Source: Anolis carolinensis
Taxonomy: Eukaryota
Length of the DNA stretch: 64,000 nt
Assembly (NCBI RefSeq): GCF_035594765.1
Contig: NC_085843.1
Span: forward strand, 267,383,971-267,447,970
Direction: 5' to 3'
Notes under the pieces: model-generated
Database searches by the model: none
The model's input: only the letters and a program-made list of their open reading frames with translations
What the model was told of the DNA's origin: nothing
Program-made: the position numbers and the translations under genes
In this document: piece after piece, positions 19,120 through 56,834 of the stretch
Numbering within the stretch: the first letter of the stretch is position 1
Layout of the letters: every line of letters begins with the position of its first letter

Positions 19120-20530
19120 TCTGTATTCTGCACTGTTAGTCCTCATCTGTGTACTGCATTCAGTTCTGGTCACCTCTTTTTTAAGAAAGATATGTACAAA
19201 TTGGAGCAGCTTCAGAGAAGGGCAGCAAGGAATGGGGAACAAAACATGAGGAAAGATTGAAGGAGCTGGCCATTTTGATGAAGAAAAGATTGAGGGGTGA
19301 CATGATTATACTTGTGAAATAGTTCAAGAGCTGTCCCAGAGAGGAGGGGCTAGGTCTGGTCTCTGCTGCCCCAGGGTGTAGGACCAAGTCTATGGACTCT
19401 CAGAGGAGAGTAGATTTCAATAGGACATTAGAAAGTAAGAATGATTTGGCAATAGAAGCAATTCTCATTTGGGATGTCTTCACAGCTGCCTGCTGCCAAT
19501 ACTTTAGCTGAAGGTCCTTGTGAAGAATTGTATAATTATATTTTGTTTATAGATGACATGTTTATTGTATTTTGTTTAAACAGTCAGGTTTGGCTAAAGT
19601 TTAAAATGGTGAGTATTTGAATTGATGATGTGTGGGGGAAGGTAGCCATCTTAGAATGCTAAGACAGGTTACCCTAGCAACAGGGGCGGAGCCAACCGCC
19701 GCCTGGAAAGGAAAAGGGGGAATATTTAAAAACCCAAGGCAGTCTGTGATTTTCCAGTCACAGTGGAGGATCTGATTCTTGTGAGGAGAATCAGGCTGGC
19801 TTAAATAGAAGGATTTGAGTCAGATTTAGATTAGACCAGACTAGGCAAGTTAGGTGACTTGTCTAGGATCATTTATAGAGCCTGTGGATTAGGGAAAATT
19901 AATCCCAGGGGATCCAGGAGTATCAGGGTTTAGTGTAATCCAGAGAAAGGAATATTTTGAAAGTTTGACCACCTCATATCCGTTTGTAACCATTAAGCGA
20001 AGTGCCTTTAACAAGTTATATGAAACCATCAAGCTCTGTACCTGCAATAAACTTGTTTTGATTTTATTCTAACCAAGCCTCTGTCATACTCTTATATTAA
20101 GTTAAGTAACAACAACATCTGAAGTAAAACAAATAGAGACAGCTTAAAAGAACCAGTGCCATCTGCCTGACGTCTCCTCCATTGGTGGCAGCGAAGAAGA
20201 TAGTCAAACAAATAATTAATTAACATCATCTCTCATAAAACATCTTTATTAATTGGTGGTATCTGTGTGTGTGTGTAGGATCAGAGGGATTCCATCTCTG
20301 TCACACATTCCTGTCAGACACCTCACCTCTGTACATATTGGTGGCAAACGGAGGGATTCAAAAGGGATTCCATTCCCTGTCACCCTCAGTTCTGTACAAT
20401 TTGGTGGCAGCGGTGGGATTCAAAAGGGATTCCATTCCCTGCCACATCAGTTCTTTACAGTCCTTCATTGAGCAGTGGGTTGGACTCAATGGTCTTTGAG
20501 ATTCCTTCTAACTTTATGATTCTATTATTT
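19120..20530 (+). mobile_element. CR1 3' fragment split by the solo LTR at 19519-20459
   Basis: CR1 ORF2-end motifs at 19120-19518; 3'UTR and ATGATTCTAT tail resume at 20465. Confidence 0.75.
19519..20459 (+). mobile_element. Solo LTR, 941 bp, with internal tRNA-Leu PBS-like repeats
   Basis: TGTGAAGAA...TTCTTTACA ends; 5-bp TSD GTCCT; AATAAA at 20046-20051. Confidence 0.9.
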
Positions 20531-20595: not shown

Positions 20596-20731
20596 CAGTA
20601 GTTCTCAACCTGGGGGTCCCCAGATGTTTATGGCCTACAATTCCCAGAAATCCCAGCCAGTTTACCAGCTGTTAGGATTTCTGGGAGTTGAAGGCCAAAA
20701 ACATCTGGGGATTCCAAGTAGAGAACCACTG
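20596..20731. mobile_element. hAT-type MITE
   Basis: Same TIR family as 9142; 8-bp TSD CTCTATAC. Confidence 0.9.
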
Positions 20732-41835: not shown

Positions 41836-42615
41836 AATTTATTTATTTATTTATTATTTAAACTTAGATGCCGCCACTCCCCTAGGGCTCGGGGCGGCTT
41901 ACAAGAAAGGCTAAAATCTAACAATTTAAAAACATCTTTAAAATATCTTTTAAAAAAAATCTCAAAAACACTCCCCCAGGGCTCGGAGTGGCTTACAAAA
42001 ACAGCTAAAATCTAAGCAATTTAAAAACAGCAATAGCGGAGATCAAAAGCCTGTTGAAACAGGTGTGTCTTACATGCCCTGCGGAAGACTGATAAGTCCC
42101 GCAGGGCACGAATTTCAGGCGGCAGAGTGTTCCAGAGTAATGGCGCCACTGATGTAAAAGCTCTACGTCTAGTTGCTGTTAGGCGCAAGGTCTTAAAACT
42201 GGGAACTTCCAATAGATCTTGGTCCTCCGAACGGAGGGATCTCTGGGGTTGGTAGGGGGTGAGGCGGTCCCTCAGGTACATTGGCCCTAGACCATGTAAG
42301 GCCTTAAAGGTAAGCACCATCACTTTAAAAGTGATCCGGTGCTCAATTGGTAACCACTGCAGCTGTAGGATTGGTGTTATATGACATCTCATCGGGACTC
42401 CCACAAGAAGTCGAGCAGCTGCATTTTGTACCAACTTGAGCTTCCGGATCACTGACAAAGGAAGGCCAATGTAGAGGGCATTACAGTAGTCCAGTCTTGA
42501 GATGACCGTGGCCTGGATCACTGTAGCTAAGTCGTCCCTTGACAGATAGGGGGCCAGCCGTCTAGCCTGCCGCAGGTGAAAGAAGGCGGTTCTACTAATG
42601 GCGGAGACCTGGGCT
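41836..42615 (-). mobile_element. 5'-truncated L2 LINE (ORF2 C-terminus plus 3'UTR)
   Basis: ORF 42021..42656 with SRLDYCNALY.GLP...QNAAARL motif; (TAAA)n tail. Confidence 0.93.
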
Positions 42616-43096
42616 TTTGACTGAATGGAGCATGATTCCCTTCCTGACAATAACACTCTCCAATTTCAAAAATGTGTCATTTCAACTAATACAGAAAAGT
42701 AGCACCATGGCGAAGAACCAGATTTACTGGGGGGGGGGGGGGGGGGGTTCAGTCCTGGACTGATTGTTTTGTTTTTTGTGAAGAAAAAAGTATACATAAG
42801 GAAGTTTCATGTAACAATGCAAAATGTTGTGAAATGTCTAAACTGTAGATATAGTTTAGTTTAGTTTATCACTTGTAAACATTTATTTATTATGATTGAA
42901 TGAATGAAAGACTACCTTTCTTCTGACATGGGGACCAACAATTTTAAATAAATTCATATTAAAATGTTCCATCCTCTTCCAACAACATAAAACAGATTAA
43001 ATGTAGAAGGAATTTGAAAAGCAATGGGAACAAATCAATAAAGGCAAAAAACCCATATATATTAATTAGACAGAAAAACTTTAAAAAGTCAATTAC

Positions 43097-53510: not shown

Positions 53511-55261
53511 TAGTACAGGAATTTCTTTGGATACATATATTGGCACATTACTGCTCTGACACAGGTTGCATAGATGATTATGAATAATTGTGAATTTTGC
53601 AAAAATGAGGTGAGGGAAAAATCCTACTAAAATGATGGAATAAGAAACAAAAAAAAGGTCAATGGATGATTAATGGAACTGATCCATACACCCCTATGTA
53701 CCTAACCAACCCCAAAAGGTCTTCTATAATCATATTTGTATTGAATTCGTGTCTTGTATTTCTATGTGGAAGCAGGCTTAGCATTTACTGTGAATCCCCC
53801 AAAGAACTGTTTGTTATTGGATAGCATAGAAATGTTGTAAATAAATATAAAATAAATACTTCATCCATTCAGTAATAATTCAGTAGCCTGGGGTGCATTA
53901 TAACTTTGATATAAAAAACATCCTAGTACACTTGAGATCAACCTAAGGTACTCATTGACCATAAAATCTTAAAAGGAAAGAGACGCATATATTTTCATCA
54001 AATAGGAAAAACCTTGTGGGAAGAAGGTTCAGTAACAGAGTAGAAGCAAAGGGGTGGGAATCAAAGACATTGCAGGGCAAATGACGGTGCCGAATTCAAA
54101 GGATTGTTCCCAGTTGCATGCAGGAGACAGACAGTAACTTAAAGGAGTTAAGAAAGATATGGATTACCCATTGTTTCTAACACAACAAAATACTCTTGCC
54201 TCTTTGGTATCGTTGTCATGTCTAGTGAAAAAGGGACTCCACAAAAGCCTAGGAACAGAGAGGATAGAGGGAAACCAGATCTCTATCATACGCCTTTCTT
54301 CTCCTTCTTCTCCGAAGCACACGTTTCTCAGAAACTATTACTCACCTGATATATCAATCAACAAGCTGTTTACAAACTCTCCCTGTGACTCACATCCATC
54401 CTGGTGTGAATGCACCATCAACAACACCCCACCCAATGCTGATGTATGGGTTGGAGCAGGAGTGAAGAGCTTGTACAATCAAGTATAGATGAATGTCAAA
54501 GCATAAATCGGGGAATATGATACTTTACGACAGCTGTAACACAGCAAATCTCCCTGGTTATTCTGGCTAGGGCTGATGGGAAATGCACACTGTTAATTAT
54601 TGGGTGTGGCCACAAGTTATCCATTTTTCCTGTTGTGGGGCCTAATTTCAAAGCCCCATCAAGCCATAAAGCTCACACGACAGCCTTGGCAAAGTTGGTG
54701 TTTGTAGTGATCTTCCATGGAGGAAGCGTGGAGCACTGCAGAAAACCCCAGCACAGATGGAGACTGATAAGAACCAGTTGTGAATCTAGAGTAGGTCCTT
54801 CAATATTTAGTTGAACCCACTACTGCTTTAATCTGAATGTTGAAGGAGCTCTCTAATTCAGATAATCCCATCTCCGAAAAAAGAAAGGTTCCGCCCCTTG
54901 GTTAATTCTTTCAGAGCAGATTTACCACCTCACTGTCACAGAAGGCACCATCAGCTGCTAATGAAAGCATTAGGTCCACTTCCCTCATTGGATAATGACG
55001 AAGATGATGCCAATTATGATAATGACATTAGACACAGCAATTTACAGTTCAAATAACTTGCAAGTTGCCCCTGCTGCATTTTGATTGCTATTGAAATTTA
55101 TTTATTTAACAAGCCCAATATTTCTGCTTTCGCCCCCAATGTCCCAATAGATTTTGGGGCCCAATGATTTTCTAGGTGACAAAGCAGTCCTATCAGCAGG
55201 AATTTTTTGGGGCAAAGTGGTCTACTCGGGAAAAGTAAGACAGAAGAAGCCAGACAAAATC

Positions 55262-56834
55262 CAGACTGGACCAATCGCAGTCTGGCTTCAGACCTGGTTA
55301 CAGTACTGAGACGGCTTTGGTCGCCTTGGTGGATGACCTCCGCAGAGAACTGGACAGGGGGAGTGTGACCCTGCTGGTTCTCTTGGACATCTCAGCAGCG
55401 TTCGATACCATCGATCATGGTATCATTCTGGGGCGGCTCTCCGGGATGGGTCTTGGGGGCACTGTTCTGCAGTGGCTTCAGTCCTTCCTGGAGGGTCGCA
55501 CCCAGATGGTGAAGCTGGGGGACACCTGCTCGGACCCCTGGCCATTGACCTGTGGGGTCCCGCAAGGTTCTATTTTGTCTCCCATGCTTTTTAATATCTA
55601 CATGAAACCGTTGGGCGAGGTCATCCGGAGTTTTGGAGTTCGGTGCCACCTCTACGCAGATGACACCCAACTCTACTACTCTTTTCCACCTAAATCCAAA
55701 GAAGCCCCTCGGATACTGGACCAGTGTCTGGCCACTGTGTTGGCCTGGATGAGGGCGAACAAGCTGAAACTTAATCCTGACAAGACAGAGGTCCTCCAGG
55801 TCAGTCGTACGTCTGATCGGGGTATTGGGTGGCAACCTGTGCTTGACGGGGTTGCACTCCCCCTGAAGGCGCAGGTCCGCAGCTTGGGGGTCCTCCTGGA
55901 TTCGGGGCTGACGCTTGAAGCTCAGGTGTCGGCCGTGGCTGGGAGGGCCTTTGCACAAGTAAAACTTGTGCGCCAGCTGCGACCATACCTCGAGAAGTCA
56001 GATCTGGCCATGGTGGTCCATGCCTTAGTTACCTCTAGACTGGATTACTGCAATGCACTCTACGTGGGGCTGCCTTTGAAGACAGCCCGGAAATTACAAC
56101 TAGTTCAATGTTCGGCAGCCAGGTTTCTAACTGGAGCAAATTACAGGGCGCGTTCAACGCCACTGTTTAAGGAGCTCCATTGGCTGCCATTTATTTTCCG
56201 GGCCCAATTCAAGGTGCAGGTTATCACCTACAAAGCCCTAAACGGTTTGGGACCCACCTACCTTCGAGACCGCATTTTCCCCTATGAACCTGCACGACCT
56301 CTTCGCTCATCGGGGGAGGCCCTCCTCTCGCTCCCACCACCTTCACAATCACAGCTGATGGGGATGAGGGAGAGGGCCTTCTCCGTCGTGGCCCCCTGGC
56401 TCTGGAACTCGCTCCCCGGGGAGATTAGGCAGGCCCCTACCCTCCTCTCCTTTCGGACGAGCCTGAAGACCGCTCTTCCGGGAGGCTTTTGGTGACTGAT
56501 CTCTGTATCATTGACCGGCTGTCCATTTCAGTGAACGCCTTCCCCAGTATTATAATAGCACTTTATAGCCATTACAGCTGAATAACTTCCTTCCTCTGAT
56601 GATATGATTTATTTGCACTCTTAGCACTTTGGCCTAGATTCTTTGAACTTTATCCATGATTTTAACATTTTATCTTGTATGTGGTTTTTATGACTTGTTT
56701 TTATGGTTTGATTATTGGTTTCATTGGTTTCTTGTCTTGTTTTTATTGTTCTATTCGGGCTTGGCCCCATGTAAGCCGCCCCGAGTCCCTTCGGGGTCTT
56801 ATTCGTATAAGAATAAAATTATTATTATTATTAT
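55262..56834 (+). mobile_element. 5'-truncated young L2 LINE with open RT frame (55317..56495)
   Basis: LLDISAAFDTIDH, GVPQGSILSP, YADD, SRLDYCNALY motifs; TGTAAGCCGCCCCGAGTCCC 3' stem and (ATT)n tail. Confidence 0.95.

What the first reader, a model, noticed from the sequence alone, without database searches (positions are those of the whole stretch)
20180..20459. Solo LTR carrying an internal array of [LTR end + tRNA-Leu PBS + anti-PBS hairpin] modules
Seen: the element is bounded by TG...CA and a GTCCT TSD, yet TGGTGG-initiated motifs recur inside it at 20183, 20254, 20339 and 20402. The last, TGGTGGCAGCGGTGGGATTC, is the exact complement of the 3' 20 nt of vertebrate tRNA-Leu(AAG) as I recall it, CCA included. 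The last two motifs each sit just after a copy of the LTR terminus (TCTGTACA versus the true end TCTTTACA). Each is followed by an AAAAGGG loop and ATTCCATTCCCTG(C/T)CAC, a mimic of the tRNA 3' end that can fold back on the PBS. Copies decay with distance from the end. Established: a PBS normally lies outside, just 3' of the 5' LTR, and is lost in solo LTRs. Inference: U5 has grown by repeated duplication of the end/PBS unit, so priming at the outermost PBS internalises older ones. The modules might give alternative priming or integration ends, hairpin-gated priming, or decoys for 3' tRNA fragments.
Basis: partly seen in the sequence, partly recalled or inferred. Interest (0 to 1): 0.72.

Follow-up and report, generated by a model that had tools for sequence, protein, structure and literature searches.

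The report
Retrotransposon ends stacked with primer sites
A lizard-type jumping gene carries a variable stack of copies of the short signal where its DNA copying starts (none to eight per end repeat), each full copy predicted to fold into a hairpin; the stack was likely seeded when the element copied its own tRNA primer into its DNA by mistake and likely grows and shrinks by slipping between copies, and no adaptive role has been tested.

Summary
Confirmed and family-wide. Window 19519-20459 is a solo LTR (TSD GTCCT) of a young Gmr1-like Ty3/gypsy family. Its 3' end holds a variable array of ~62-bp units: tRNA-Leu PBS, short loop, anti-PBS arm, LTR terminus. TSD-flanked ends follow 0-8 units. 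The two LTRs differ in unit number in 6 of 20 resolved elements. Unexpectedly, the normal leader-adjacent PBS is perfect in only 2 of 42 copies, while 302 perfect PBSs sit inside units. Five independent junctions carry 25-46 nt copied from tRNA, one specific to a single tRNA gene. Related LTRs stack sites for other tRNAs (Leu-CAG, Ser-AGA). Best reading (0.6): tRNA-tailed plus-strand DNA, a dead end in yeast Ty3, is sometimes transferred out of register and seeds perfect inner sites; slippage and inner priming then add or remove units; the hairpin partly masks inner sites. Plain tandem duplication explains long arrays and remains the main rival. Two-sided covariation is not shown within the family, and function is untested. 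The scan noted similar stacks in two other genomes. Five targeted literature searches found no description.

The parts
19514..19518 (+). 5' target-site duplication GTCCT
19519..20459 (+). Solo LTR (941 bp, TG...CA) of a Gmr1-like SCAN-bearing Ty3/gypsy family; 94% identical to the 5' LTR of full-length copy L031
   Evidence: no coding remnant of the family in the window
20046..20051 (+). AATAAA, likely the poly(A) signal, which would place all modules in U5 (inferred; transcript ends not mapped)
20183..20193 (+). Oldest relic: 11-nt perfect PBS fragment after an old CCA end; no hairpin
20254..20335 (+). Decayed module with a (TG)n expansion; copy L134 has a perfect-PBS module at the same position
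   Evidence: fold not above shuffles
20339..20398 (+). Module M1: PBS with 3 edits, loop, anti-PBS arm, copy of the LTR terminus
20402..20421 (+). Module M2, 5' arm: perfect 18-nt PBS plus 2 further letters matching the tRNA-Leu(AAG/TAG) complement
20427..20445 (+). Module M2, 3' arm (anti-PBS), predicted to pair with the PBS across a 5-nt loop (17 pairs, -23.9 kcal/mol, z -3.6)
20446..20459 (+). LTR terminus used for this insertion, ending TACA
20460..20464 (+). 3' target-site duplication GTCCT
29384..30319 (+). Second solo LTR in the window, of sister family B (TSD GTATT), with its own PBS-relic modules at about 30140-30319
   Evidence: family B

Best explanation
This is a solo LTR of a Gmr1-like gypsy retrotransposon whose 3' end is a variable stack of primer-site units, likely seeded when plus-strand DNA that had copied the tRNA primer was transferred out of register, likely lengthened and shortened by slippage between units and by priming at inner sites, and predicted to hide each inner site partly in a hairpin. 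Steps: (1) shown by sequence: tRNA-Leu primes, and the RT of this clade sometimes copies far into it. (2) Inferred from Ty3 (PMC5371799): the usual transfer uses a tail-less plus strand, so the mismatched outer PBS is inherited, and the 5' U5 can come from a second RNA. (3) Inferred: now and then the tRNA-tailed strand lands on an inner PBS-like site, giving a perfect PBS plus a recopied end ahead of the old outer PBS. (4) Inferred: later priming at the outer site fixes the unit in both LTRs, and priming at an inner site drops it. (5) Shown by sequence: single units also duplicate or drop out in cis. (6) Predicted: the anti-PBS arm roughly evens out inner and outer sites.
For: Outer PBS perfect in 2 of 32 5' LTRs, inner M2+ perfect in 17 of 22, last inner better than outer in 17 of 18. 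Genome-wide, 302 perfect PBS plus hairpin heads against 2 perfect among 42 leader-adjacent sites. The same mismatched outer PBS spans two well-supported clades. Five independent junctions carry tRNA copied past position 58: 40 of 40 nt to one Leu(TAG) gene versus 31 or fewer to four other genes, 45 of 46, 41 of 41, 33 of 35 and 25 of 25. In L089 the tRNA copy sits inside an LTR (TSD 4 of 5) and is followed by a recopied U5 end. L136 has an inner Leu(CAG)-type site with a matching anti arm, while its outer site is the decayed family type. Family D stacks Leu(CAG) and Ser(AGA) sites on one leader start. Unit counts are unequal in 6 of 20 TSD-resolved LTR pairs, and 3 more differ in the last 25 nt (2, 5 and 9 edits) despite 0.1-0.6% core divergence. 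L241 has the predicted growth shape: an extra 5' unit identical to its neighbour. Opening cost averages 16.9 kcal/mol for near-perfect inner sites and 11.4 for outer sites.
Against: In 16 loci fetched for their arrays, 9 of 48 adjacent units are within 1 edit versus 0.85% across elements, so plain in-cis duplication makes much of the length and would also propagate an already perfect PBS. Two of 139 inner sites carry the outer site's insertion. No family-A module birth is proven to be tRNA-templated; the third read-through letter matches the tRNA in only 7 of 68. A 5'-longer element fits growth, inner priming or mixed RNAs equally. The folding model picks the observed priming site in 10 of 17 (duplex alone 5 of 17), worse than 'always outer' (14 of 17) (scored by hand). 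Two-sided covariation is not above shuffles, and 43 of the 45 pair-keeping changes come from two inherited sites. The L089 junction was not confirmed in other runs.
Confidence: 0.6

Rival explanations
1. Plain tandem repeat: an ancestral perfect end/PBS/hairpin unit expands and contracts by RT or DNA slippage and unequal exchange; tRNA templating is a rare side event.
For: Exact neighbouring duplicates in L235, L236, L241, L247 and L251. L235 reads as an L248-like array with three single-unit duplications. L055 and L056 lack one middle unit in the 5' LTR. Old clades already have a perfect inner unit (L063, L065, L134).
Against: Does not explain inner sites for other tRNAs (L136, family D), deep tRNA copies at LTR ends, 9- and 11-nt PBS fragments followed by recopied ends, or occasional repair of the outer PBS toward the tRNA (5 of 32 within 1 edit). 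In the main sample neighbours are no more alike than random (P 0.83 and 0.74).
Confidence: 0.25
2. Adaptive design: the outer site is kept mismatched to escape 3' tRNA fragments or PBS-binding zinc-finger proteins, and the hairpinned inner sites are selected as decoys, spare primers or primer-activation helpers.
For: Mismatched PBSs dominate active mouse ERVs (PMC7472051, section 4.3). Lizard SCAN zinc-finger proteins were predicted to bind a Gmr1-like PBS (PMC4592553, passage). The anti arm keeps pairing in 98% of cells versus 39-57% when slid.
Against: Copies with none or one full unit are the majority (25 of 40 hits picked without regard to modules, scored by hand). Perfect inner sites in DNA would add, not remove, zinc-finger targets. 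No functional data.
Confidence: 0.1
3. The 5'/3' differences and perfect inner sites come from ectopic gene conversion among hundreds of LTR copies after insertion.
For: Large young family (891-994 first-look candidates); units are shuffled between copies (83 distinct unit bodies among 117).
Against: Differences cluster in the last unit while the 470-850 bp cores differ by only 0-1.8%; conversion has no reason to spare the core or to leave the outer PBS mismatched.
Confidence: 0.05

Closest known systems
Gmr1-like Ty3/gypsy retrotransposons with a SCAN-like capsid domain (PMC4592553, passages; the primary paper was not held)
   Same: One ORF with SCAN, protease, integrase, RT and RNase H in that order in relative L031; tRNA priming; TG...CA LTRs.
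   Different: I found no description of a PBS array inside the LTR in what I could read. Repbase and the primary paper were not available, so a prior note there is possible.
Yeast Ty3/Ty1 plus-strand transfer (PMC5371799, section 2 read)
   Same: The genomic PBS is inherited rather than recopied from the tRNA, as the persistent mismatched outer PBS here suggests; a tRNA-tailed strong-stop DNA is made.
   Different: In Ty3 that product is called a dead end and copies 12 nt; here tRNA copies of 9-46 nt appear fixed in genomic LTR ends.
Mismatched PBSs of mouse ETn, MusD and IAP (PMC7472051, section 4.3 read)
   Same: The commonest leader-adjacent PBS has 2-3 mismatches or indels, with occasional reversion and primer switching.
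   Different: One PBS per element, outside the LTR; no perfect inner copies or hairpin units are described in that section.
Drosophila gypsy with two PBSs (PMC1635307, abstract only) and the bipartite Ty3 PBS (PMC5371799)
   Same: More than one tRNA-binding site per genome.
   Different: Their second site is at the 3' end of the RNA and fixed; here the sites are tandem, variable in number and each preceded by an LTR end.
Stacked LTR-end/PBS junctions noted earlier by this scan (e1-9523320, e1-9554435; unchecked AI notes, other genomes)
   Same: Inner copies of the end plus PBS; sites for different tRNAs.
   Different: Those concern non-coding elements; here an autonomous family, with counts, LTR-pair asymmetry, tRNA read-through and hairpins measured.

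Membership tests
Gmr1-like Ty3/gypsy | Integrase upstream of RT and RNase H in pol (defining feature recalled, not from a call) | tested here: met
   L031 ORF: RVP 420-507, integrase 619-966, RT 1092-1251, RNase H 1316-1445; its 5' LTR is 94% identical to the window LTR
Gmr1-like Ty3/gypsy | SCAN-like capsid C-terminal domain | tested here: met
   PF02023 at 209-293, E 7e-12, above cut-off; link to Gmr1 from PMC4592553 passage
Gmr1-like Ty3/gypsy | TG...CA LTRs, TSD, PBS after the 5' LTR, polypurine tract before the 3' LTR, no env | tested here: met
   the single ORF ends just before the 3' LTR
Gmr1-like Ty3/gypsy | RT tree placement with named Gmr1 elements | not tested
   no named reference sequences were in hand
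ERV-L / class III endogenous retrovirus | tRNA-Leu PBS and 5-bp TSD (recalled) | tested here: met
ERV-L / class III endogenous retrovirus | Retroviral order RT, RNase H, integrase (recalled) | tested here: not met
   integrase precedes RT; not filed here
Tf1-type self-priming elements | tRNA-independent priming by the transcript's own 5' end | tested here: not met
   tRNA-gene-specific copies at LTR ends show tRNA priming; anti arms lie over 300 nt downstream of the likely poly(A) signal; transcript start not mapped
Two-site or bipartite PBS systems (Drosophila gypsy, Ty3) | Second tRNA site at the 3' end of the RNA, in or near U3 | tested here: not met
   all units lie downstream of AATAAA at the LTR 3' end; the 18-mer at up to 3 mismatches occurs only at 20402
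Rfam RNA families | Match to a covariance model | tested here: not met
   one chance-level hit outside the LTR, E 0.54

The most novel reading that the evidence does not exclude
These gypsy elements run on a renewable primer-site ratchet. They prime mostly at an inherited, mismatched outer site that host tRNA fragments recognise poorly, while the primer tRNA itself keeps donating perfect sites into U5, masked in hairpins. These act as spare priming sites, redefine the LTR end each cycle and let the element switch primer tRNA (Leu-AAG/TAG, Leu-CAG, Ser-AGA) without first losing priming.
Probability: 0.25. Interest if true: 0.8.

Novelty: new variant of a known kind. Interest (0 to 1): 0.6.

Why it matters
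Textbook LTRs are identical at insertion, end at one fixed place and leave the PBS outside. Here the end moves, and 9 of 20 resolved LTR pairs differ at the tip although their cores are about 99% alike, which matters for LTR-based dating and annotation. If the reading holds, the genome keeps a fossil record of the 'dead-end' tRNA-tailed intermediate of gypsy reverse transcription, down to which tRNA gene primed. It would give a concrete route for primer switching and a natural panel (perfect masked versus mismatched open sites in one RNA) for testing the priming-versus-silencing trade-off. It also means many solo LTRs here keep a perfect tRNA-fragment target that solo LTRs normally lack.

Tried and rejected
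1. First-TACA end or chance TSD: rejected. 2. ERV-L: rejected by domain order. 3. Outer PBS matching another tRNA: two T-arm pattern searches found only AAG/TAG, CAG, TAA and intron-bearing Leu-like genes, none with the outer variants; not exhaustive. 4. Excess similarity of neighbouring units: absent in the main sample of 50 pairs, present in the long arrays; both are reported. The one search count includes two leader-adjacent segments of L237/L238 that the script did not exclude. 5. Two-sided covariation in family A: not above shuffles. 6. Equilibrium folding as a predictor of the primed site: only partly. 7. Expression: no RNA holder listed. 8. L089 junction in other runs: 1521-1542 without cover, which proves nothing because tRNA-like sequence is filtered. 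9; contigs of two runs join the downstream flank at exactly 20460 after 280 and 573 letters that did not lay on the stretch; this may be an empty-site allele, not verified. 10. Literature: searches for internal, tandem or duplicated PBSs gave nothing that describes this (39 was swamped by other meanings of PBS); others were for context. Three primary papers were not held. No supplements were read, and Repbase notes or Gmr1 supplements could already mention the arrays. Rows left out before counts: 14 loci without a clear TSD, duplicated, or mis-parsed. In one search, two rows (L061, L064) were corrected by hand. Pairs not resolved and left out of the 20: L031, L048, L058/67/68, L060, L066, L071, L237, L238, L239 and copies with one LTR only.

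Full report
Observation. The window holds a 941-bp element from TG 19519 to CA 20459 between two GTCCT copies. Against tRNA-Leu genes found in this genome they match for 11, 6, 8 and 20 nt from the start. The last unit folds into a 17-pair hairpin (z -3.6); the earlier three do not beat shuffles on their own. Earlier scan notes call the host a green anole; I did not test that.

What the element is. A search with the module region gave 994 candidates, 40 scored. Copies followed by a leader led to full-length elements. One has a single ORF with SCAN, protease, integrase, RT and RNase H in that order. That is the Gmr1-like Ty3/gypsy layout; the order is recalled, and the SCAN link is from a passage of PMC4592553. 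LTR cores of 18 pairs differ by 0-1.8%, so the family is young.

The array is a family trait and it moves. Of 51 non-leader LTR rows, 41 have a 5-bp TSD (38 exact). Among 40 hits picked with a query upstream of the modules, 2 have no full unit, 23 have one, 11 two, 3 three, and 1 cannot be scored (hand count; it includes both LTRs of some elements and one segmental duplicate). Arrays chosen for many perfect sites reach 7 and 8 units with exact TSDs. Of 20 elements with both ends resolved by a TSD, 14 have equal counts, 4 have one more unit at the 5' end (L033, L045, L052/53, L241) and 2 one fewer (L055, L056). Three equal-count pairs differ by 2, 5 and 9 edits in the last 25 nt. The 20254 motif is a true old unit: L134 has a perfect one at the same place.

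The surprise. The PBS next to the leader, the one that should prime, is perfect in 2 of 32 5' LTRs, while inner sites from the second unit on are perfect in 17 of 22. The first unit is mostly decayed (6 of 31 perfect). Genome-wide there are 302 perfect sites with a hairpin head, and 2 perfect among 42 leader-adjacent sites. One mismatched outer form spans two supported clades. Only 2 of 139 inner sites carry an outer-site signature. The copies are related, so these are not independent trials.

Evidence that tRNA is copied into LTR ends. Of 15 matches to a tRNA-Leu 3' pattern, 7 are tRNA genes and 8 follow LTR-like ends, from 5 independent events. One matches a single Leu(TAG) gene for 40 of 40 nt and four other genes for 31 or fewer. 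In L089 a tRNA copy (33 of 35 nt, running on with mismatches) lies inside a TSD-flanked LTR and is followed by a recopied U5 end; other runs did not confirm this junction. In L136 the last inner site is of Leu(CAG) type, its anti arm has changed with it (z -4.2 and -3.3), and the outer site is still the decayed family form. An unrelated family stacks Leu(CAG) and Ser(AGA) sites on one leader start. Passages of PMC11251516 state that plus-strand synthesis normally stops before m1A58 and that read-through spoils transfer.

Mechanism. Section 2 of PMC5371799 describes Ty3 making a tRNA-tailed strong-stop DNA that is a dead end, transferring a tail-less one instead, and so inheriting its PBS. That fits the persistent mismatched outer site and, by inference, 5' ends copied from a second RNA. 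I infer that the tailed strand is sometimes transferred, either in register (5 of 32 outer sites are within 1 edit of the tRNA) or onto an inner site, which adds a perfect PBS and a recopied end. L241 has that shape, but inner priming gives the same shape. Slippage also acts: in 16 loci fetched for their arrays, 9 of 48 neighbours are within 1 edit against 0.85% across elements, although the main sample of 50 pairs shows no excess.

Hairpin. In 45 distinct perfect-PBS units, 43 fold better than tail-shuffled controls at z below -2. Arm substitutions keep pairing 45 times and break it 7 times, with 11 gaps; 43 of the 45 come from two inherited C/T sites. In 46 aligned units 98% of cells pair, against 39-57% when slid, but two-sided covariation is at shuffle level, as expected with a tRNA-fixed arm. 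Opening costs average 16.9 kcal/mol for 26 near-perfect inner sites and 11.4 for 32 outer sites, cutting the inner advantage to about 2.6 kcal/mol. The net model picks the observed site in 10 of 17 elements, duplex alone in 5, and 'always outer' in 14 (hand-scored). Gating is therefore plausible but not shown. The arm may have begun as the ordinary U5 partner of the downstream PBS (recalled from retroviruses, not tested).

Known or new. The element is a Gmr1-like gypsy by the features tested. Mismatched working PBSs are known in mouse ERVs (PMC7472051, section 4.3 read). Two fixed PBSs are known in Drosophila gypsy (PMC1635307, abstract only). Passages of PMC3212995, PMC12853362 and PMC8931336 did not describe arrays inside an LTR. 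Searches found no description; three primary papers were not held, Repbase could not be seen, and no supplements were read. The scan noted similar stacks in two other genomes; these are unchecked notes, not support.

Verdict. Real and family-wide; a new variant of a known kind. Best explanation 0.6, interest 0.6. The bolder ratchet reading gets probability 0.25 and interest 0.8.

Noticed in passing
window 29384-30319: Solo LTR of sister family B (TSD GTATT) with its own stack of PBS relics. In 30 family-B loci the ends fall after 0, 1 or 2 units (21 exact TSDs), and a short unit is a 9-nt PBS plus a recopied end.
   Followed up: partly
L231, L233, L234; L189-L216: Unrelated family D (LTR about 1 kb; exact 4-bp TSD in 9 of 16 with a start found; no ORF of 110 aa in L234) stacks four PBS-like sites: Leu(CAG) inside the LTR, Ser(AGA) 18 of 18 to a genomic tRNA, one unidentified, one decayed.
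   Followed up: partly
L145 (also L084-L086, L128): Tandem LTR-internal-LTR-internal-LTR array in which a 40-nt copy of one tRNA-Leu(TAG) gene leads straight into the integrase region, deleting gag.
   Followed up: partly
L136:7927-8963 and 657-1697: Full-length family C element (TSD TATGC) with five inner PBS relics; the last is of Leu(CAG) type with a matching anti arm.
   Followed up: yes
L004, L009, L036, L100, L241; L007, L035, L051, L054: Several copies sit at what looks like the same one or two positions of another repeat (near-identical downstream flanks), hinting at a preferred target.
   Followed up: no
L079, L239, L241: Short elements in which the leader or gag start joins directly to the 3' U5 units; in L241 through a 7-nt microhomology.
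   Followed up: partly
window 20610-20718: 44-nt inverted repeat, 86% complementary, MITE-like, 150 bp downstream of the LTR.
   Followed up: no
window 55239-56492 (+) and 42024-42665 (-): Open frames that look like non-LTR retrotransposon RT fragments by eye; not scanned.
   Followed up: no
L003, L005, L007, L010 and others: A U3 duplication of about 90-110 bp makes a longer LTR variant (1036-1081 bp versus 930-940 bp).
   Followed up: no
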